Positions 43,264-57,925 of a DNA stretch of 64,000 nucleotides are shown here, one piece after another; position 1 is the first letter of the stretch; every line of letters starts with the position of its first letter. The notes under the pieces were generated by a model that saw nothing but the letters and a program-made list of their open reading frames with translations, made no database searches and was not told the origin of the DNA. Both the position numbers and the translations under genes were made by a program. This DNA is from Zootoca vivipara. Lineage: Eukaryota. The stretch lies in the NCBI RefSeq assembly GCF_963506605.1, contig NC_083278.1, positions 52,452,001 to 52,516,000 of the forward strand, in the 5' to 3' direction.

Positions 43264-45645
43264 TTAAGGGTCTGCACACTCCCCACCCAATTTTAAAGAT
43301 GAACTGCAAAACAACTCTTTGCACAGTAAAGCCTGAAACCCAAGAAATTATTTTAATCTGTAACCCTGCGTACCCTTATCTAGGTGTATAATTGCCATTG
43401 AACAAAGTGAGGCTGACTTCCAAGTAGATATGCAAAGGATTGGGCTGTAAGCCATCATTTAGAAGAAAAGCGCTCTACAAACAACACTTTTTGTTAAGCT
43501 GATTATATATAAATCCAATCACTCTGTATTGTATTACTTCAAAATATAGTGCTCTGCGAGAATGAAAGAATGTCAAGCATTTGGCCTATTTAGCTGAACT
43601 CTACCCCTAACATAGTTAAAAAGCCCTCCCATTCAACCTGATATGATGAACTCATTCTATTCTTTCTATTCTTTAGGTGGGACCGACACATGGTTCAAAT
43701 CCAATGCATACCGTCATCTGGGTTTAAAAAGGTGAACCAGTCTAATTTTAAGTTGACTCTCTAGGTTTGATTTTAAGTCACGTTGTTCAATTTTGCAAGT
43801 TGCATCTACCTCCTCTAAGGTGGCTAAATATTGTGCTGCTGCATGTAAATTAGTCACCAGGGACTAATTGTACCGTAGTAAACACCATTTTGTTTTTCGT
43901 GTCTGGTGCTTTTAGAGTATGATACAGTTACTAGTGATTTTATTGTTAGGGCTCTCTATTTTGTTTTGCTTGATATTTTATATATTTGCAAAAAAATTCT
44001 GGTCATTGACCGTAATGACAAATTTCCTAAATGTCAGCCATTGCTGTGACTTCAATCACAGCAAAACAGTGAAAGGAAGAATAAAGTGAGTGTTTCACAA
44101 AGCTAATGAGCGGAATGCTGGAGCAATGTGCCCCGTGGACCAGAAATTTATTTATATTAAATGAAATCTGGAAAATTGAGGATTATGTCTATTCTGGGAG
44201 GGATGGGGGGCAGCTTTCCCTTTCACACCTATGCCAAATATCCTGAAAAGAAGAAGTCTATTTAACTTCATGAAGTTCTTCCTTTCCAAATTATGCCTTC
44301 AAAATTGAAAGCACAGACATGCTTGTTTACTCTTTAAGGCTTAAAACCAAACAAGTAATATGACCTACTTTTTCCTATTAAAAGTTTCACCTTCACAGTG
44401 TGGATCTTTTAACTATCAGCCTGTGACCTGGTATTTAGTTTTCTGAACTGTTACCTTTGCTATTCATTTCCAAAGAAATGTTCTGTGATGGCAAGACAGA
44501 ATTACGAAGAACTAACAAAACAGAACACTTTTTTTAAAAGTAAAGAAATACCTCATTAATTACACGAGTGTCCACAATACAAAGAAGAAAGAAGCTTTTC
44601 TCAGAAGAATGAGTGCACTTTCTGTGATGGAAGGTTGATCTCTGAATAGCAGCATTTAAATGACCTTTGCGGTTTCCTAAATGAATTATCTCAGAAACTC
44701 TTGACATTTGCAGACTAAATAGCACAAGCAGAGTCTCATCAATAATAAGTCCTGCTATTATATCCATGATTGCTAGAGACAAATCTAATTGACCCATGAC
44801 GCTGAAAATCACTTTCAATTTGCAACTGAAGTAACAAAGGCTAAATAAATGTACAGGAACAATAGCAATAAAATAGTTCCGACATTCGGAACTATAGTAC
44901 TGCTGGTCTAATTGTAGTAGAAAATATTTTGCCTCACAGTGGCTATTGCTTCAGTCTCAATATTCTGTAAAACCCAGTGTCAACATTTTTGGTGGTATTT
45001 AGTAAAAGGTAGGGTGTGCACCAGATTCAGCCAAAGCCCAAAGTCCAAACTGAATCAGGTTGATTTGTGTCCTGCCCAGATTGGGTAGAAGCAGAAACAA
45101 ATCACTACAGGGCAGATTGGCTTGTCCCAAAAATATTTGTACAGATTTAGGCCAATCTGTAGCTCCAAACGGTCTCACAGAAAGCCAGGCCAATGTTTCA
45201 ATTAATAATTACAACACCATATAAGAATTCCAGTGTGGAGAGAAGGGGATCTGGAGGAAGGCTAGCAAGATCTCCTCCTACCAAACATGTGCTAATCACA
45301 GGCTTGCAGGGAGGAGCTGGACTTTGCTTTATGCATGCTGCGGGGCTACCTAGAAGGCTCCTGGTGTGTATGAGAAGTCTTAAAATGAGAAACACTTTTG
45401 GAAGTCCTGTCTCTTATAAAGCGTTTGATGGGTTTGGTTGCATTTCTTCAGCTTGTGTTTGTTTTCTATCGTTTGTCAAACAATCCCAGTTTCCTTGTTT
45501 GTTTGTTTTGAAATGTTTGCCTATTTTTTATTTTATTATCTTCTCATTGCTAAGAATATTGCATTTTGATTATCCCAACCACAAACTACAAGAAGGATCT
45601 AGCTTGTGTTTTGTAGCCTAGAGGTGTTTTACCTTTTTATTTCTA

Positions 45646-46348
45646 CAGTGGTACCTTGGTTCTCAAACGCCGAAAACCCGCAAGTAAGTGTTCCAGTTTT
45701 CGAATGTTTTTCAGAAGCCGAACGTCTGGTGTGGCTGTCAGCTATTGTTTCCTGGGCACCTGAACTAATCAGAAGCTGTGTCTTGGTTTTCAATCATTTC
45801 AGAAGTCAAATGGACTTCTAGAACGGATTAAGTTTGGCGCTTTTGTTTTTGCTATTTATTTTGCATTTTTGTTTCTGGGGGGTTTTTCAGTTAATTTGTT
45901 TTTGTAACTGTGTGGAACCCAGTTCAGCTACTGATTGATTGTGTGGCTGCGGAAATGGATAAAAGCCCCCCATCCAAAATGACGATCATCAGTGCAGTTA
46001 TAATAATAATAATTTTAATTTCTATTTATTTTATAGCACAGTACATTGATTATTGTTTTCATTTTATGGATCAATGGTCTCGTTAGATAGTAAATTTCAT
46101 GTTAAATTGCTGTTTTAGGGGTTGTTTTTAAATTGCTGTTTTAAGGGTTGTTTTTAAAAGTCTGAAACAGATTAATCCGTTTTGCATTACTTTCTATGGG
46201 AAACATAGCTGCCAAGTTCTCCCTTTTTTTAAGGGAAATTCCCATCTGCTGAATAGGCTTCCTCACGAGAAAAGAGAAAACTTGGCAGCTATGATGGGAA
46301 AACTCCACTTTGGTTTTGTAACGGACTTTGAGAACCAAGGTACCACTG
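45646..46348. mobile_element. Tc1/mariner (Tigger-like) non-autonomous element
   Basis: Perfect 22-bp TIRs cagtggtaccttggttctcaaa / tttgagaaccaaggtaccactg and a TA TSD. Confidence 0.92.
46204..46293. mobile_element. 90-bp hAT MITE nested in the Tigger-like element
   Basis: TIRs catagctgccaagtt / aacttggcagctatg with an 8-bp TSD atgggaaa at 46196-46203 and 46294-46301. Confidence 0.93.
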
Positions 46349-47352: not shown

Positions 47353-49037
47353 CTATGGCAAATAACAAAATCATGGTGTTTCATGTGCACACTTTTTGGT
47401 GTATTTTACATAAAGAATTTATTCTTTGCAAAAAGAAAAGAAACGTATGACTATTCAAACTTAAGGGAAGCAACTCTTTCAAGAGTACTGGATTATATTC
47501 TAACTAAACCTCTCCTGACAGTCTCATGAGCAGAGTTTTGCTTTTGGGACACATTCCACAGTGAAAAGGAAGGAGGAAGAGAGGAAATGCTTTTTGCCAC
47601 TCTCTCCTTCCCACTGCAGCCCCTTGAAAATCTGCTTGAAAATCATGAGAAGCAACAAAATGGGAAGAGGAGATTGACAAAAATGCTGCCCTGCCCATAC
47701 TCCAACCGGACCTTCTGCAGGATCCCAGCTGCCTATATAAACAGAAGCAACCCTTCCATTTGCAGATGAGTTGTTAGGATCCAAGCCATCATTTTATACT
47801 GGCTTGCACTCTCCCCCTGCCCCACTCTCACACACAGCCCATACAGGAATGGACATCGTCCAGAGCTATTTTGTGTAGCTAAGTAATGACTTCTTGTTAG
47901 ATTAGTGTTGAACATTAGCTGAAAAGTAACCTGGTTTCGTAACTCCTCAATATATGTTTGAGAACCTATGGCTGCATTTGAACTTGGGTATTCAGTAACT
48001 ATAGTTAAAAAACGCAAATAACCTGTGCATGAGCTGCTTGCTGTCCTACCAATCCTGTTTTGCTACTCCTTGAGCTGAGCAAGGAAACAAACCACAAACT
48101 GGTTGGCTTAGCATTATATCCAAACCAGCCATTTGCTTCACTCTCTAAACCCGAAGCCAAGGTTTGTTCTTAGTTGCAGATTGTGGTTTGGAGGAGAGGG
48201 AGAGGAGGTAGAGAAGCAAACCAAGAGTGCTGCTTTGGACAAAACATAAAGTAGCCCTTTGTGGTTTGTTTACCTGATCTACTAAGAGAGCAGAGAAGTG
48301 GAAGAGCTTGGGCTGGACAAACAGGGTAATTTGTTAACTGCTTATCATTATATACAAATGAAGCTTATATTTGTAATACAGAATGTATTGGGGGCAATTA
48401 TGGGTTGTGTTCCATGTTAGGCTATTACAAATGTTTCATCTGAGCAACTATATTAGCTTGCCAGGTGGGTGTCCATCCCACCATGTGCTACTCTAGGGGA
48501 TCACCCAACCACTTCAGAGCCAATTTCATGGGTGCAGGGGCACACAGGGAGAGGCAAGGGAGAGAGCCTCACTGCAAAAGCAGCTACACAGAGCTTCCTC
48601 TGATGGGGTGAAATATACCTAATGAGCCCTGTGTTTTTAATCCCCCACTCAAGTTAGCTGGAAAACATTTCCTTTGAATCAGCACCTAAAACAGTTGTGC
48701 CATAACAGGCAAGCACAGCATGATTTAAGGATGATTACTACCTGTAAAACTACTAAACTTAGACCTTGGTCTAAGTTGGATACAAAAAAACCTAATGCAG
48801 AGAAAATCCACACACGCTTCCTCTCCCTTGTTTGCAGTACAAGATCAACCTAAGATACTTAACAGAAAGCTCTTTCAATGTGTACACTTCTATCATCCTA
48901 CATTCATAAAACATTTGAAAGAAGTGCTCTCTGAAAATAAGTCCAGAAGATCCAAAGAACAAAAATGGAGATATTCCCGACAATTGGCAATTGTCACACT
49001 TCCAAAAGTGTGATGCAACTACTGGCAAAAACTCTTA

Positions 49038-49229
<192 letters not shown>

Positions 49230-49292
49230 CTATGTAGTAGCTTGACAAGAAAAATAAAAGCCCTGAATACTAAATGCAATAAAAAGCCCCTA

Positions 49293-50352
49293 CCGTGTTT
49301 CTCATATTATAAGACATGTCTTATATTAATTTTTTCCTCAAAAAAACACGACAAGGCTTATTTTCAAGGGATGTCTTATTTTTTAATAAAGTGCACGCGG
49401 GCGCTGTTTGCCGGGCTTGTCAAGCCCAGCAAGGAGCGCCCGCCGATCTTCGGTGACAGGCGGGGGTGGGGGGAGACCAGAGAATGATCTCCGCTTCCCC
49501 CCACCCCCGCCTGTCACACAGCACAGGTCCGAAGATCGGAGGGCGCTGTTTGCCGGGCTTGTCAAGCCCAGCAAACAGCGCCCGCCGATCTTTGGTGACA
49601 GGCGGGGGTGGGGGGAGAGCGGAGAACGATCTCCGCTTTCCCCCCCACCCCGCCCGTCACACAGCACAGGTCCGAAGATCGGCGGGCGCTGTTTGCCGGG
49701 CTTGTCAAGCCCAGCAAACAGCGCCCGCCGATCTTCGGTGACAGGCGGGGGTGGGGGGAGAGTGGAGAACGATCTCCGCTTCCCCCCCACCCCCGCCCGT
49801 CACACAGCACAGGGCCGAAGATCGGAGGGCGCTGTTTGCCGGGCTTGTCAAGCCCAGCAAACAGCGCCCGCCGATCTTCGGTGACAGGCGGGGGTGGGGG
49901 GAGAGCGGAGAACGATCTCCGCTTCCCCCCACCCCCGCCCGTCACACAGCACAGGGCCGAAGATCGGAGGGCGCTGTTTGCCGGGCTTGTCAAGCCCAGC
50001 AAACAGCGCCCGCCGATCTTCGGTGACAGGCGGGGGTGGGGGGAGAGCGGAGAACGATCTCCGCTTCCCCCCCGCCTGTCACACAGCACAGGTCCGAAGA
50101 TCGGCGGGCGCTGTTTCCCGGGCTTGTCAAGCCCAGCAAGGAGCGCCCGCCGATCTTCGGCTCTGTCCCCCGATGCGCTACGGCTCGGGGAAGCAGGCAG
50201 GGAGCTCCTGCTGGGTCCCGCGGCTTCGCCTCTCACTCGGTCGGGGCTTTGCGATAGTGCTTATTTTCGGGGTATGTCTTATTTTTCACCAACCCTTTGA
50301 AATCCTGTCATGGCTTATTTTTTGGGGATGCCTTAAAATATGAGAAACACGG
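49293..50352. mobile_element. Tc1/mariner-type non-autonomous DNA transposon carrying a tandem array
   Basis: Perfect 16-bp TIRs ccgtgtttctcatatt / aatatgagaaacacgg, TA on both flanks, and subterminal cttatttt repeats. Confidence 0.9.
49398..50160. repeat. GC-rich minisatellite, ~137-143 bp unit, ~5.3 copies, each made of two palindromes
   Basis: ccgaagatcgg recurs at 49529, 49672, 49815, 49957 and 50094. Confidence 0.97.
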
Positions 50353-50506
50353 TACTATGCAGCCTCTTATTTAATCACATTTGTATCTCTTCAATGTTCA
50401 CATGTACTTTGCTTTTATTTCCTGTTAATGCTGTTAAGCAGTCAGAGCAGCACTTGCTTTGGACTATGCCTAGTTCACAATACTTAGAAGAGCTGCATTA
50501 CCAAAT

Positions 50507-50629
50507 CATTTTTATGTGAACCTGTTCACTAAAATTAGTGCTGTTCACCTAAATTAGCTATTTGTAACATTTTTATGTGAACCTGTTCACCTAAATTAGT
50601 GCTGTTCACTTAAATTAGCTATTTGTAAC
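50507..50629. repeat. 61-bp tandem duplication with an internal ctgttcacctaaattag subrepeat
   Basis: catttttatgtgaacctgttcac starts at 50507 and 50568. Confidence 0.9.
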
Positions 50630-51097
50630 TATAGGATGGAGCCAAAATGTATCATTCAGTTCTTTTCAATATTAGCACATTTAACCTATCTGCACTGCTT
50701 TGCTACTATTGCAAGTTGAGAGGATGCCCAATCTAGCAATAAGCTCATTATACACAGACATTACCATGAAGGAGAAGGCTTAGAGATACCAGCCCTTCCC
50801 AAGCAGATCTTTTCTTTCCTCCAGAGTAACATACATTACTGTCACATGCTTCATTGAGTGAACTTGTCTAACAGCCTCAATCCTATGAAATAAGCCTGAA
50901 TTAGTTCAAATTAGCCCGAATTAGCTTATGCCCAATGGACGTTGACTCCTTGTCACACTTGGCCAGCTTTACGTGATGAAAACTGAACCAGCATCCATCC
51001 TTGGTATTCTCTTCCAGCTCTTGCATGGAACTTACTAGTCTGTCATCTCAGGCTAGTTATGGTCATGAATCAGTTATCCACATGAGTGAACTCTTGA

Positions 51098-53071
51098 CGG
51101 ACTTCTGGTCTACCGCCAGCGCTGTTCGACGGGATTTGCCTCGAGCTCCGAGGCAACCAGGCTCCGCGAGGGGGTGGGAAGAGGCGCGATAGCGACGCGC
51201 CACCCCAAAAGAGCCCCAGATCAAGTGCCCTGGGGACGAAGTGCTTGGCAGCGCCCCGTTTCTGCGACTCCTCAACTCCCCGGTAAGCCTAAGAGCCCCG
51301 GAGAGAGTTGAGTGGAAGTTGCGGGGGCCATTTTGAGCGCAATCGTCACCCTCGCGAAGCGAAGCTACGTGCCGACAGCGGAGAGCGGTGGATTCTTTCA
51401 AGTAAAGATTACAAATTGGAACCTGTCAGTAAAAAGGGGTGTTTTTTTTGAAATTTAATTAAAGAATTGGCTACAGGGGGTGATTTAAAAAGGAAGTCGA
51501 TTGCCCCCTTTTGAGAGACTGTGATGCAATGAGCTAACCACTAAGCTGATAAAGTGGGAAGCTTTCAATTTACTAGAAAGTGGACCTAAAAACCCTCCTC
51601 TGTAGCAGGCACAGGGGAGAGGTTTGAATTAAGTGGAAGTTCCTGCAAAAATTGTGGTATTGTTAAAAGTAAGTCCCTCTGGAAGTCGGACCCGGGTCAG
51701 TGAATGGTGTTGAGAATATTGTAATAATAAAGAATTTGCTTAAAAAGTATTGAAGAAACTTTGATTAAGACCCTAGAAGTTATGCGGGGGGGGGGAATGT
51801 TTTTAAAGGAAGAATACATCCAGTTTGGACTTAAAAATGGTGATTGAGAAGATGGAATTTGATCCCTGCCATTTCTGGCCGTATAATCTGCTGGACTCAC
51901 ATGAAATTTGAGATACCTAAGATGGCTGTAGCCACAACAATATCATCACAAGACTTGGCTTGGCAAAAGATTTTTGTGGTGCTCTTGGAAATTAAACAGG
52001 AATTGGATGAGAATAACAAGCAGCTGAGACTAGTAAACTGTGGAGAGAAAGGAGTGATTGTCATAGTGCAGAAAATGGACTTGAGAAAGAAATGACCCCA
52101 ATGGACAAAGAAGAAATGCAAGATGCTCAAACACAAATATTGGAAGAAGAGGAAAAAGATGAAGGATACAATGTTCCACAAGTGAGAGATGTGGAACAGG
52201 ACTTAGGTTGGATACAAGGAGGCCTCAAAAAAGAAAGTGTATACTGCTGGACTCCTAGTGAGAGAGGGAGTCCAGGGTTTGCACTGTGAACTGGACAGAA
52301 AAAGGGGGAAAATGAAATTGGACTGGAACTTGATAATGTAAAGGACTGGTTTCGATCCATAGAATCAAAGAACAATGCAAAGACAGTGGAAGTGGGATGC
52401 AGGCAAAGACAGTGGAAGTGGGAAGCAGGCATAGTATTGAAGAGGCGGCAGAAGATGTGGAAACAAATTCGGTGGTTTTGGTGGGAAAGGGTGGGAATGG
52501 GGTGATTAATAAAGGGATATTATAATGGGTGGATTTAAACGGTCTGAAACTGGTTTGACATAAGGAATTCGCTGAAATGTCTGGGAAATTTGGCTCCGGC
52601 AGAAGGGGGGATGGATCTAAATATTAATATTGAAGAAAGGAGAATAGAATTTTAAGAATTGAATTATAATACATTTCTGGTAAAAAATGTTAAGCTAAGG
52701 GAAGAAATATAAGATAAAATAATGGGAAAGTGGAAAGGATTAGATTTGGATAGTGGATTATTAAAAATGATAAAATTGTTATGTGTAAAGTAGAATAGAA
52801 AAGTTAAGTGTAAGTTATAATAAGGTTTAAGATATTAATTGTGAACAGTGCTTAAATGGTTATATATAAGGGACCCAGAGTGGGGGGAGTTGGGGAAGTC
52901 CATAATTATATTGTTATGATAAATGATATAAGTAAGATGTTTTTCTTTCTCTTACTTTCTCTTTTGCTTTTTTACTTTTTTGTCTTTGTCTTTTTTGTTT
53001 GTTTTGTTTTGAGATTTGCTGATTTTTTTGCATATATATGATAATGGAAAATAAAAATTATTTTTTTAAAA
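51098..53071 (+). mobile_element. ~2-kb non-autonomous L1-like (HAL1-like) retroelement
   Basis: 16-bp TSD atgagtgaactcttga at 51082-51097 and 53072-53087. CpG-rich 5' end, broken coiled-coil-like ORF remnants, G-rich and T-rich 3'UTR, AATAAA and a short A tail. Confidence 0.8.
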
Positions 53072-54414
53072 ATGAGTGAACTCTTGATGTGACTACAATT
53101 GGTGCAAAACCTGTATTTCTTTTCTTCAAAGGTGTCTGAACACTAAGGCAAAAAATCCATGTGGTTTATATTTTCAAAATAGAAAGTTGTATAAAAATGG
53201 AGACTCTTTTCAAAACTTTAAACTAGGATATTATACTTCATGCTATACCTGATACAAAGCACGGGCTGTTAAACAAAGCATTGACCTTCTGGTGAAATAG
53301 AAACCAAATATTACATTAAAAAGCTTTCTGCATGAATCTTCAGTTACATATTTTACATTGTGGTTAACAATAAGACTTCCAAAATAGAAAGCACCAAGGA
53401 TTTCTAGGTCCACAAGTTCAATACACAATGCGTTTACTTTGAAATTTCTGATGAAAGCAATAAGGCAACCTCTTTCAAGAGTCAGCTGAACAAAATGGAA
53501 TTCAGTTTTTGAGACCTTGAGCAAAACTAGATATAAAAATGATCCTGGCCAAGACACTATTTTGCAACAAAACAAATATTCTCAGTATGCTTATATTATC
53601 ATGTACATCTTTGCATGAAAGTAAATCAGACCTGGCTATGGCAATGGACTCTACATGGGGGGTACCTTTGCAGACCGCAGGAAGCTTCAACCAATCCAGA
53701 ATGGAGCAGCAAGAATGTTTGTGGGAGCTGACCCCTGGATAAGGCTACACCTATCCTGTGACAACTGCACTGGTTACATATTTATTTTCATGTAAAAGTC
53801 AAAATATCAGAGATGGTTTTTAAAACCCCAAATGGCTCTGGTCTAAGCTATCTGATGGAATGCCTTCTCCTACACCAGCCTGTATGTTGCTAAGCTATGG
53901 GAGAGACTCCCATCCATCAGGGAGACTTATTTTACTGTGAAGATAGCAAGGCCTTCTCAGTAGGCAGTTCCCACATTGTGCAACATGTTGTCTGCTGAAG
54001 CCTACGTTGTTCATTCTCTTGTTTACCATGGGTTTGTGAAGATGCTTTTCTTTCAGCTGGCTTTTACTGATGGACTATCTGAAGAGACAGTTTTATCTCT
54101 GCTTCCTGTTTCTTTTCAACTGTTCTTGAATGTATTTTGCCTTTACCGGGGTTTTAATGTGAATCTGATCTATTTGTTGTAAACCATCTTAAATTATGTG
54201 TATAGGTTTTAAAAATCTTATCTAAATAAATATAAATTACAGCAGAGGAACTGGTAGCAAGAGATTAAGTCTACAATCCTGTGCATGTTTCCTAAGACTA
54301 CCGGTATAACTCACTGAATGCAGTGGGACAGCTAGGTAAAATATGCATAGGACTGAACTTTTAGTTATGTGTATTTTCATATACTATTCTTGAGTATATT
54401 TATATTTCATATAT

Positions 54415-54746
54415 TCTTGAGAGTCCCATGGACTGTAAGAAGATCAAACCTATCCATTCTGAAGGAAATCAGCCCTGAGTGCTCACTGGAGGGACAGATC
54501 CTGAAGCTGAGGCTCCAATACTTTGGTCACCTCATGAGAAGACTCCCTGGAAAAGACCCTGATGTTGGGAAAGATGGAGGGCACTAGGAGAAGGGGACAA
54601 CAGAGGACGAGATGGTTGGACAGTGTTCTCGAAGCTACGAACATGAGTTTGACCAAATTGCGGGAGGCAGTGGAAGACAGGAGTGCCTGGCGTGCTATGG
54701 TCCATGGGGTCACGAAGAGTCGGACACGACTGAACGGCTAAACAAC
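54415..54746 (+). mobile_element. BovB 5'-truncated copy
   Basis: LRVPWTVRRSNLSILKEISPECSLEGQILKLRLQYFGHLMRR followed by a BovB 3' end. Confidence 0.93.
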
Positions 54747-55475
54747 ATCTTCATAGCTGCTTATGATTTATTATTCTCTCTCAACAAAATGGAGATACAT
54801 CAACACCACTCACTGCCTACTTGGAAACCCAAAGAAAAATGTGCAGCACTTCATGTCAGGGATTTATTTTACTTTCATCACCATGTTCAAGAAACTAATA
54901 ACTATTTTTATGCATAGGTTGAAATAAAGATAGCAAACTCAACTGTCAAAGAGATGAAAATACCAGAGGGACAGAAACAAAGATTTGCACTTTCTTCCTG
55001 CCAGAGGGGCATTCATTAAAATTCTTCAGGTATTTATGCTTTCAAAGTATGCAGGTTTGAATTTAGGGTTTTTTTTGTAACAAATTACAGGAATAGTGCT
55101 GCTGAAGAGTTTCAAATAATCAGTTGGAGCCAAGGTGTATGAAGCATGTCAAATGTGGGGCAGGCATGGGTTATTTCAGCCAGTAGCAGAAATATACATT
55201 TAAACAAATAAAAAAAATACTGTATTTACATACATTTCATAAACATTTAGCTACTTTGGTGAAAATAATAGTTAAGGGTTTATCCAACATGGCTTTATTT
55301 GTGTATTTCACCTGTAGTTGTAGGCAAATCTGCAGGAATCAACAGAAACTATAAGTGTTATTTCTTGCCTTACATATACATTTAGGTTGCAATTAAATGC
55401 ACACTTACCTGAAGTAAGTTCCACTGAATTCAGTGAGAACACCCAATCTTTGTCCCATGCATGAATGAGGAAATG

Positions 55476-55925
55476 CAGTAGTGTAGTGTGGCGGGGGGAG
55501 GAAGGGCGTAGCCCCGGGTACAAATTTCTGAGGGGGTGCAACCAGGCACCACCACCACCAGTTCCCTCATGAAGGCTGGAGCTGTGGGGAGGCAAACTGT
55601 GCACAGGCCGGGCCTTCAGGGCTGGGGCAGCACCTCATTTTCCTCATGGCTGGCAAAGGGACTCTTGGGATGGCCAAGAGGGAGGGATGAGGAAAGCACT
55701 GCCGGAGCCATGTGCATTGCCCAGAGCACCAGGAAAAGGTCACACAGCGAAGCTCCTGGCTTCACGTTTCTCTGCCTTATCTCTGCTCTCAGGTTGGGGC
55801 TAGTCTGCAAGGAAAGATTCCCTTGTTTGGATGCTGACCGGTGAAGGGACGGACTGCTGCCCAGTCCACTAGGGGGCACAACACTTGCCCCACCCAGGGC
55901 ACCGGCAACCCATGCTACACCCCTG
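55476..55925. mobile_element. hAT-type non-autonomous element (450 bp)
   Basis: Imperfect TIRs cagtagtgtagtgtgg / ccatgctacacccctg with an 8-bp TSD aggaaatg at 55468-55475 and 55926-55933. Confidence 0.85.
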
Positions 55926-57805
55926 AGGAAATGTGCATGTGTTTGAGAAAGATAGGAGGAGCAAAGCATAGCCTTTCCCCATCTTTCTCATACACTTGCT
56001 CCAAACACATCCCTTCAGTAAAAAGCTGTAAGCTGTTTGGTCTCTTACTGTAGCGTGAACCCAACCACCTCAGATGTACAAATGACTGATTTAGATCTTT
56101 ATAGTCATCTTTGGCTTACTGTTTTGTGTGCAATGCATCTGTTTATATATGAATGAATAAACATGCTGGACAAAAAATGCTGCTTTTAAATATGATTAGT
56201 CAGTGTTTTCCTAGATTAGTACAATAGTCATTCCATTCAAGAAGCAGATACATGAAGGCAATTTAATTATTGAAAAATCCAGATCCCAGTGCATTTTAAG
56301 TACGTACTGTACATACTTCTTTATGTATTGAGTTTATAGCTTAGCTCCTCATTAGGCAATACATTCCAGCTTCTGTAAATCTCAAACATACTTTTTATCA
56401 TCTTTCAGAATACACTTATGTAGCACTGATTAATAAAGGCAAACAATACAAGTTTCCCATTGCTTTATGTGCTAAGGGTTTGATTAATCATTTTTCCTGA
56501 AGTTTCACACATAGCAGGGGGGAATAAAATATAAGAAAGCTGTAAGATTATATGTAACAGTGAGAGCCAGCCTTAAAGCAGTTCCCTAAAGTAAAAGCAA
56601 GCTGAACACTAAATCAGAGAGCCATGAATATGAGTCTGTTATTCTATGAGCCATGTGATGATAATAAATTAAACTATCTGAAAGAGAAATCTGTTAGATC
56701 TAAATCCCCCTACAACAGCATCTTGTGTAATAGGGAGATTCAGTACCAGAACCACTCCAAAGTCATGGGGAAGTCAACTAGATTAAAAGGCAATTCATTT
56801 AACATAACTGTTGGCATTGGGAAGACAGGTCAGTAACACAGCCCTACTGACTTCTACTGTCAACAGTTTGTACAACCCTTCCAAGTGGCAAAGAAACCTG
56901 AAAACAGACTGAATATAAGTGTGATCCCCAACAAAGTCACAGTGTGTTCCCATTCAGTATTCCTGCCACTGATTTCCTTTTCAGCATAAGCCATTCAATT
57001 TCCCTTCCTGTTTTGAATTTTTTCCTCCACCCCTCAGTCAGCCACCATTCTGTGCCCCATGAGCATGCTCACACCTCATTGAGCTGTTTGTGTTCTCTTC
57101 TGAAGGTTGTTTTTTAAAAATAAAAATAAAAAATAAATAAATCTGGTACTTCAACAAGCCTTGAGTTCCCTCAAGTCTGTCTATTTTGGCCATGTCACAC
57201 ACCTTGAGAAGGAGGGTGCAATTAGTATACTGTATATTGATTTAAAAATTCCAAGAAGAAGAAGAGTGTATATTTGCACTGTCCTTGCATCAATAGCTGA
57301 CTCTCATGCAGGTCACCTTTTTGTCTTTTGTAACAATTTGCTATTGTATGATAGAATAAAAAGATGACCAACATAAGAGCATGAGTGTGCATAAAAAAAT
57401 ATACACTAGTTATTTAATTTACCATTTGCCAGTTGAAGTAAATTAAGAAAGGAATTGAAATAATTAAGTTACACCAATTTTAGAAAGTCTCAATGTGAAA
57501 TTCAGGCATATTAACTTTAAACCTAGAATACTGTGACTTGGACAGCTTCACTACCTCCTTACAAATATTCAGAGTAGACTTTGAGAAGACTGGACTTCTA
57601 TCCAACTGAGAGCAAAAAAGTTGTTTCAGTTTGCAGCATGTCTGCAAATTGCAATAAATGAAGAAAATGAGAGAGCAATTATGTGTCATCTCATGTTATG
57701 TATCCACACAAGCCAGGAGCCTAAAAGGTAAGATAATACAGAAAATTGTTGCCTGATTGTTCATCCCAATAAAAAAGGGTAAACAGAAGCTATTCCTTGT
57801 TTTTA

Positions 57806-57925
<120 letters not shown>

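What the first reader, a model, noticed from the sequence alone, without database searches (positions are those of the whole stretch)
49293..50352. DNA transposon carrying an array of back-to-back GC-rich palindromes next to a MAN1A1 splice acceptor
Seen: inside TA-flanked 16-bp TIRs lie ~5.3 copies of a 137-143-bp unit that is almost entirely self-complementary. Palindrome A is 67 bp (ccgaagatcggcgggcgctgtttgccgggcttg-t-caagcccagcaaacagcgcccgccgatcttcgg), with 33-bp arms, 1-2 mismatches and a 1-nt spacer. Palindrome B is ~65 bp (gtgacaggcgggggtggggggagagcggaga-acga-tctccgcttcccccccacccccgcccgtcac). A short acagcacag linker completes the unit. CpGs are intact, and the element ends 125 bp from the acceptor of the 49167 exon. 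Inference: a young MITE seeded a minisatellite that could form about 11 cruciforms or pre-mRNA hairpins, plus G-run structures. It is a candidate VNTR, de novo CpG island, dsRNA or ADAR substrate, or splicing modifier.
Basis: partly seen in the sequence, partly recalled or inferred. Interest (0 to 1): 0.72.

Follow-up and report, generated by a model that had tools for sequence, protein, structure and literature searches.

The report
Lizard jumping gene with palindrome array
This is one of about 250 young copies of a small jumping DNA element that carries a variable-length row of hairpin-forming repeats, likely picked up when one transposon jumped into another; its place beside a MAN1A1 exon is probably chance.

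Summary
The sequence description is right: TA-flanked 16-bp TIRs around 5.4 units of 143 bp, each made of two palindromes, 125 bp from a MAN1A1 acceptor. It is not a local curiosity. The junction between end and array occurs 244 times in this genome. Eighty complete copies hold 1.4-31.3 units, and their ends differ by about 1%. Full-length relatives with the same TIRs encode a 431-aa DD35D pogo (Passer-type) transposase. The array also sits in a second, CAGT-ended transposon family. One copy shows that family inserted at a TA inside the Passer-type parent, so the element is likely a deletion product of a nested insertion. Two other samples have the empty site, so the insertion is polymorphic. 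Support for a role at MAN1A1 was not found: predicted acceptor accessibility is unchanged, CpG transitions are 4-5 times elevated, and RNA cover was too thin to test. Closest known: Xenopus miDNA4. The scan had no look-alike note.

The parts
49291..49292 (.). TA target-site duplication, left copy
   Evidence: empty allele keeps one TA; TA on both sides in 79 of 80 complete copies
49293..49308 (+). 16-bp terminal inverted repeat (3' end relative to the partner's transposase)
   Evidence: identical in autonomous L142/L143/L144/L147
49293..49395 (-). Passer-type 3' end, 103 bp with subterminal repeats
   Evidence: 95% to autonomous L144; 94-96% to non-autonomous parents L341-L344
49397..50160 (+). 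tandem array, 5.4 x 143 bp; six palindromes A (first truncated) and five palindromes B with a 10-bp linker
   Evidence: 92-94% to units in the CAGT-ended family L331/L302
49672..49738 (.). palindrome A, best example (33-nt arms, 1 mismatch)
   Evidence: (I21)
49738..49803 (.). palindrome B, example (31-nt arms, 4-nt spacer)
   Evidence: (I25)
50161..50204 (+). non-repeated tail that still matches the CAGT-ended donor family
   Evidence: L331 match runs to element position 912 = 50204
50204..50352 (-). Passer-type 5' end, 149 bp
   Evidence: 99.3% to L341, 97-99% to L342-L344; 96.6% to L159, which keeps part of the transposase
50337..50352 (-). 16-bp terminal inverted repeat (5' end relative to the partner's transposase)
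50353..50354 (.). TA target-site duplication, right copy
49044..49167 (-). MAN1A1 coding exon, 124 nt (neighbour, not part of the element)
   Evidence: its donor joined to the next exon in 6 reads of X23
49168..57806 (-). MAN1A1 intron of about 8.6 kb that holds the element near its 3' end
   Evidence: upstream exon placed; this junction was not among the joints shown

Best explanation
This is one of about 250 recent copies of a non-autonomous, TA-targeting DNA transposon with a variable internal array of palindromic 143-bp units, likely moved by the Passer-type (pogo, DD35D) transposase of full-length elements that share its ends, likely born by deletions from a nested insertion, and probably neutral for MAN1A1. 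Steps: (1) shown: a CAGT-ended transposon family carries the same units in 1-4 copies; (2) shown in one copy: that family sits at a TA inside the Passer-type non-autonomous parent; (3) inferred: two deletions of such a composite removed the CAGT ends and left Passer ends around the array; (4) shown: the product spread to about 250 TA sites and is presence/absence polymorphic here; (5) shown: unit number and order change far faster than the ends mutate; inferred: by misaligned repair or replication, helped by the hairpins, during gap repair after excision or in place; (6) inferred: the hairpins fold on themselves in the pre-mRNA and leave the acceptor free.
For: 244 matches to the end-array junction, 0 in the reversed control; 3168 exact palindrome-A cores. 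80 complete copies, 79 with TA on both sides, 489-4775 bp, median 7.4 units. Four full-length elements (3473-3898 bp) with identical 16-bp TIRs and TA flanks, three with the whole 431-aa frame; HTH_Tnp_Tc5 + DDE_1; 35 residues between the 2nd and 3rd D. Donor family: L331 matches element positions 105-912 at 92-94% and goes on past both breakpoints; the Passer match begins at position 912. L341 = parent L342-L344 plus the CAGT end directly after the TA that is empty in L342-L344, with a right end 99.3% identical to ours. Empty site: single contigs join 49290 to 50353 in X4 and X6, two studies. Fast array change: 60 distinct two-letter unit codes among 69 copies, 32 of 32 distinct among copies over 1300 bp; of 23 pairs whose 295 bp of ends differ by at most 1, 2 have the same unit number (pairs not independent). 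Acceptor region predicted unpaired 0.30 with and 0.29 without the element, 0.0 expected pairs between element and the 193 nt downstream.
Against: No intact composite with both CAGT end and array was found: 1 of 28 matches to the parent stretch had the CAGT end, and L341 keeps donor segments that do not overlap ours, so common descent is inferred. The intact transposase copies match our 5' end at only 86% over 93 bp; the nearer lineage (L159/L270, L269) has a shortened or interrupted frame, so which copy supplied the enzyme is open. Mobilisation was not assayed. Array changes during transposition and after insertion cannot be told apart from one assembly. Neutrality rests on a folding model and on missing evidence; the RNA runs had almost no MAN1A1 reads.
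Confidence: 0.82

Rival explanations
1. The array was copied into the Passer-type ends by template switching during gap repair, from a CAGT-family copy elsewhere, with no nested ancestor; L341 is a separate event.
For: No full composite found; our element keeps no CAGT terminus; abortive gap repair is the model given for such derivatives in PMC2213677 (abstract read).
Against: L341 joins the same small parent subfamily (4 of 28 matches share our left end) to the same donor family and has the right end nearest to ours, 99.3%. Two independent captures of one donor by one parent are less economical.
Confidence: 0.12
2. This insertion alters MAN1A1: the long GC-rich hairpins 125 nt upstream of the acceptor slow splicing, cause skipping of the 124-nt exon (a frameshift), attract ADAR, or spread methylation.
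For: Very stable predicted structure (-792 kcal/mol; z -17 per unit); close to the acceptor; polymorphic, so an effect could segregate.
Against: The element lies outside the last 125 nt, and the model shows no pairing with them. About 4 of 244 copies would fall this near an acceptor by chance, if some 200,000 acceptors are assumed (my assumption, no call). No skipping joint among the 15 of 25 joints shown, though cover was far too low to exclude it.
Confidence: 0.08
3. The palindromes are kept by selection at the level of the element, for example because hairpins or cruciforms raise its transposition or repair rate.
For: Units are almost wholly palindromic, and the donor interior holds 9 palindromes in 1294 bp. 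One unit of L108 shows both arms changed to a perfect match.
Against: In 530 units a C-A mismatch persists in 508 and about half carry two more. Double changes are as expected by chance (A-T at pair 31: 3 seen, about 3.6 expected). The 12 units with the mismatch repaired share linked variants and look inherited. A plain 235-bp relative without any array is far more common: 27 of the first 30 of 1829 terminal matches.
Confidence: 0.05
4. The array or its variation is an assembly artefact.
For: Short-read contigs break inside the element, so no run spans it.
Against: Units differ by shared diagnostic variants in ordered patterns; two distant copies agree at all but 1 of 1895 bases; X3 contigs enter the element from both flanks without a difference.
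Confidence: 0.02

Closest known systems
miDNA4 of Xenopus tropicalis (Tc1/mariner MITE with an internal satellite); known to me only from passages in two reviews, PMC12628747 and PMC9659126; the primary paper did not appear
   Same: TA-type MITE whose interior is a monomer or an array of variable copy number; proposed capture of a pre-existing repeat
   Different: Here the unit is two long GC-rich palindromes, the donor is an identifiable second transposon family with a nested intermediate, full-length partners are present, and no free array without ends was seen among the copies examined
Passer (PS) family of pogo transposons; PMC7386202 (passages), PMC9976928 (passages and section 17)
   Same: Partner has DD35D, HTH_Tnp_Tc5 + DDE_1, 431 aa, 3.5-3.9 kb, short TIRs, TA duplication; reptiles are within the reported range
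   Different: Our element encodes nothing; no BrkDBD hit; no tree against named Passer proteins; internal arrays are not mentioned in PMC9976928 (0 hits for 'tandem'; supplements not read)
DTC84 of the clam Donax trunculus, pearl-like MITE; PMC3879986 (passages)
   Same: Variable number of core repeats, a palindrome in each repeat proposed as a hotspot of length change, distinct end units
   Different: 12-nt palindrome, up to five repeats, AA duplication, fixed order of variants; ours has 65-67-nt palindromes, up to 31 units and shuffled order
MtPH-A6-4 PIF/Harbinger elements of Medicago; PMC2213677 (abstract)
   Same: Internal tandem repeats, nested insertions and deletion derivatives within one DNA-transposon family
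   Different: Other superfamily, 3-bp duplication, 60-bp repeats

Membership tests
Non-autonomous IS630-Tc1-mariner/pogo element (MITE-like) | Terminal inverted repeats | tested here: met
   perfect 16 bp
Non-autonomous IS630-Tc1-mariner/pogo element (MITE-like) | TA target-site duplication proven by an empty site | tested here: met
   X4 and X6 skip 1062 bp = element plus one TA; 79 of 80 copies TA-flanked
Non-autonomous IS630-Tc1-mariner/pogo element (MITE-like) | Many dispersed near-identical copies, no transposase inside | tested here: met
   244 junction matches; interior is array plus ends, and matches full-length elements only at the ends
MITE in the strict sense | Short (about 400 bp in PMC9659126) and uniform length | tested here: not met
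   489-4775 bp, median 1350; the 235-bp relative meets it
Passer family (through the partner) | DD35D catalytic triad | tested here: met
   D174, D278, D314, spacing 35; triad positions read by eye from the motifs; Fot elements are DD35D too
Passer family (through the partner) | DNA-binding domain BrkDBD + HTH_Tnp_Tc5, or HTH_Tnp_Tc5 alone | tested here: met
   HTH_Tnp_Tc5 E 1e-12, no BrkDBD at E 0.01; this pattern also occurs in other pogo families
Passer family (through the partner) | 1.6-4.0 kb, 400-500 aa, TIR under 30 bp, TA duplication | tested here: met
   3473-3898 bp, 431 aa against section 17 of PMC9976928
Passer family (through the partner) | Falls in the Passer clade of a DDE-domain tree | not tested
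   no named Passer sequences were fetched
Passer family (through the partner) | The partner transposase moves this element | not testable with these tools
   inferred from identical TIRs and 95%/86% end identity
Tigger-like (label for the CAGT-ended donor family) | Shares ends with a Tigger transposase element | tested here: inconclusive
   TA flanks and imperfect TIR (20 of 25); end matches in DDE_1 loci did not frame a transposase; the name is recalled from the CAGT terminus, not from a call
Locus VNTR / minisatellite | Allelic variation in unit number at one locus | not testable with these tools
   contigs break in the array; variation is shown only between loci
CpG island (functional) | Unmethylated state | tested here: inconclusive
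   GC 0.62 and o/e 0.87 meet composition rules, but CpG transitions are 3.7-4.9 times elevated in units and right end; methylation itself not measured
Known RNA family | Rfam match at gathering score | tested here: not met
   0 matches in 49000-50600

The most novel reading that the evidence does not exclude
A still-active vertebrate Passer-type system is spreading a captured, hairpin-rich minisatellite whose array is rewritten at nearly every jump, so each insertion carries its own bar code; it would be a living model of how transposon nesting gives birth to GC-rich minisatellites, and polymorphic copies beside exons, such as this one at MAN1A1, could act as segregating splicing or methylation modifiers.
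Probability: 0.15. Interest if true: 0.65.

Novelty: new member of a known kind. Interest (0 to 1): 0.34.

Why it matters
Transposons with internal satellites are a known route to new tandem repeats, but the source of the repeat is usually only proposed. Here donor family, empty parent, a nested intermediate, about 250 young products with 1-31 units, candidate transposase genes and an empty allele all lie in one species, so the birth and turnover of a minisatellite can be followed and tested. The transposase copies with whole frames are also candidates for an active reptile Passer element. For MAN1A1 biology the finding probably matters little.

Tried and rejected
RNA: no RNA holder was listed for the stretch. 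Three same-species RNA runs, about 6% of each read, gave almost no MAN1A1 cover: 6 reads in X23 for the downstream junction, none shown for the upstream junction or for skipping (10 joints not shown); array bin depth 0.34/0.10 in X21 and 0 in X22 and X23; reads at the element ends come mostly from other copies; the animals' genotype at the locus is unknown. This tests neither splicing nor editing. Organism B (X14) gave no contig cover over 49457-50239, but its flank contig ends at 49184 and contigs cannot show absence. Array inside an autonomous element: no unit match better than E 0.29 in 80 transposase loci. Recurrent arm-to-arm repair of palindrome A: the 12 repaired units look like one inherited variant, one unit aside. 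The right-junction pattern (307 hits) overcounts the family: 21 of the first 30 were followed by the Passer end, so one search is used. Rows dropped: of 73 rows, L100 and L109 were left out of the 69-copy set because the script paired ends of neighbouring elements; 3 of the 80 copies are not pure arrays. The 80 copies are biased to high identity and to short arrays. Literature: no description of this family turned up (listings; papers read only as stated); Dfam and Repbase were not available, so it may be catalogued there. PMC7325037 and PMC10702118 (passages) added nothing specific. No supplements were read.

Full report
OBSERVATION. The element spans 49293-50352 between two TA dinucleotides and has perfect 16-bp TIRs. 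TRF finds 5.4 copies of a 143-bp unit at 49399-50160. Palindrome A has 33-nt arms with 1-3 mismatches in the four inner units, and palindrome B about 31-nt arms with a 4-nt spacer. One unit folds far better than shuffles (z -16 as DNA, -17 as RNA). The neighbouring 124-nt exon on the minus strand is GH47 and matches mannosidase IA in 40 of 41 residues; the two paralogous loci are 74% and 83% identical to it over this exon. The description is confirmed, with small corrections.

A FAMILY, NOT A LOCUS. The 21-mer that joins the left end to the array occurs 244 times with up to one mismatch, 0 in the control; it detected 67 of 69 known copies, so the family has about 250 members. The palindrome-A core occurs 3168 times exactly (donor-family copies included). 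Eighty complete copies were recovered: 79 have TA on both sides, lengths are 489-4775 bp, units 1.4-31.3, median 7.4; 8 have 5.0-5.9 units like ours. The sample leans to high-identity, shorter copies. Ends differ from the majority letter by a median of about 1%. The 28-bp terminus is shared by 1829 places; of the first 30 by position, 27 are a plain element of about 235 bp, 2 carry a different 41-bp array, 1 carries the 88-bp array of the full-length elements, and 0 carry this array.

PARTNER. A DDE_1 search led to full-length elements of 3473-3898 bp with the same 16-bp TIRs and TA flanks. Three have the whole 431-aa frame at 100% rounded identity, with HTH_Tnp_Tc5 and DDE_1 domains and a DD35D triad. 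These fit the Passer family as described in PMC7386202 (passages) and PMC9976928 (section 17); no tree was built. Our element matches them at 95% (3' end) and 86% (5' end). They carry GC-rich 88-bp arrays of their own, in 3.0-5.4 copies, but not our unit. That this enzyme moved our element is inferred.

ORIGIN OF THE ARRAY. Nine of the first 30 hits of the right-junction pattern lie in other contexts. Several are TA-flanked elements that begin with CAGT. L331 (1294 bp, imperfect TIR 20 of 25, nine palindromes) and L302 carry 3-4 units 92-94% identical to ours and continue beyond both of our breakpoints; relatives carry 1-3 more diverged units. The donor match ends at element position 912, where the Passer-type match begins, and our first palindrome is cut mid-arm, as expected for the receiving side. 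L342-L344 are array-free parents with our two ends. L341 is the same parent with the CAGT end placed right after a TA that is empty in the others, and its right end is 99.3% identical to ours. The simplest reading is a nested insertion followed by different deletions in L341 and in our family. It is inferred: 1 of 28 matches had the CAGT end, and no complete composite was seen. The name 'Tigger-like' for the donor is recalled and was not confirmed.

ARRAY DYNAMICS. A two-base variant in the right arm of A splits units about evenly; the last unit has one type in 67 of 69 copies while inner units are mixed. Both types exist in the donor family. There are 60 distinct codes among 69 copies, 32 of 32 among copies over 1300 bp. 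Of 23 pairs with at most one difference in their ends, 2 share the unit number. Yet L288 and L290, 48 Mb apart, differ at 1 of 1895 bases, so the array can be moved intact. Eleven of 66 variants seen in a single copy occur in two or more of its units, and some long arrays show repeated four-unit blocks; this suggests block duplication, but 'private' is provisional with 80 of about 250 copies. I infer misaligned repair or replication helped by hairpins; the timing is open. There is no sign that pairing is selected: mismatches persist and double changes are at chance level.

THIS INSERTION. Contigs of X4 and X6 (two studies) join 49290 to 50353, leaving one TA, on a haplotype with several other shared differences; X3 contigs run into the element from both flanks with no difference (X3 may be close to the source of the assembly). 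The insertion is therefore polymorphic. Folding the sense strand with and without the element gives the same acceptor accessibility (0.30, 0.29) and no pairing with the downstream 193 nt. CpG transitions exceed other C/G transitions 4.1-4.9-fold in units and 3.7-fold in the right end, 0.7-fold in the CpG-poor left end; inherited variants inflate the counts, but the pattern suggests germline methylation, and intact CpGs are explained by youth. RNA reads were too few to test splicing or editing. With 244 copies, a few this close to an acceptor are expected by chance (about 4 if 200,000 acceptors are assumed; my estimate).

COMPARISON AND VERDICT. It works like miDNA4 of Xenopus (review passages) and resembles DTC84 and MtPH-A6-4. 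It differs in the long GC-rich palindromes and in having donor, parent, intermediate, partner and empty site all visible. No description was found in eight paper searches; repeat databases were not available. 'Lizard' comes from earlier notes on this genome and was not tested. Verdict: real, a new member of a known kind, of moderate interest for transposon and satellite evolution and low interest as a MAN1A1 regulator.

Noticed in passing
L144, L147, L143 (G000:C12:36.99 Mb, C3:42.03 Mb, C11:4.64 Mb): Three Passer-type elements with whole 431-aa transposase frames and intact TIRs; a sister subfamily at 86% has at least 8 near-identical copies with open frames. Candidates for currently active reptile DNA transposons.
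   Followed up: partly
L142-L144, L147, L159, L162, L185: Members of this Passer-type group carry different GC-rich tandem arrays (88, 58, 41 bp) near the 5' end and a 79-bp repeat of the transposase 3' end: the group seems prone to internal arrays.
   Followed up: partly
L286, L289, L291, L292, L293, L295, L297: Older versions of palindromes A and B occur in at least two further contexts: a second CAGT-ended family and an element with another terminus. Palindromic modules appear to be shared among several families.
   Followed up: partly
L283, L285 (G000:C1:2.95 Mb, 15.09 Mb): Long arrays show repeated four-unit blocks of spacings, like early higher-order repeats.
   Followed up: no
L287 (G000:C3:52.310-52.313 Mb): Two copies of the family face each other about 1.1 kb apart, 190 kb from the window copy; may be local hopping.
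   Followed up: no
L299 (G000:C8:21.135-21.139 Mb): Two left ends and one matched right end around 21 units, with a 438-bp step: perhaps one copy inside another.
   Followed up: no
window 49177-49269: The empty-site haplotype of X4 and X6 differs in the polypyrimidine tract (two substitutions, 3-bp deletion) and has a 7-bp duplication at 49269; these would confound any splicing comparison.
   Followed up: no
window 45644-46340 and 54415-54750: Two other repeats draw many RNA reads from elsewhere in the genome; the first begins with CAGT.
   Followed up: no
window 50507-50629: Tandem duplication of 61 bp, 95% identical, 155 bp from the element.
   Followed up: no
window 52001-53000: Strong purine skew (GC skew 0.50), probably the 3' part of a retroelement; not identified.
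   Followed up: no
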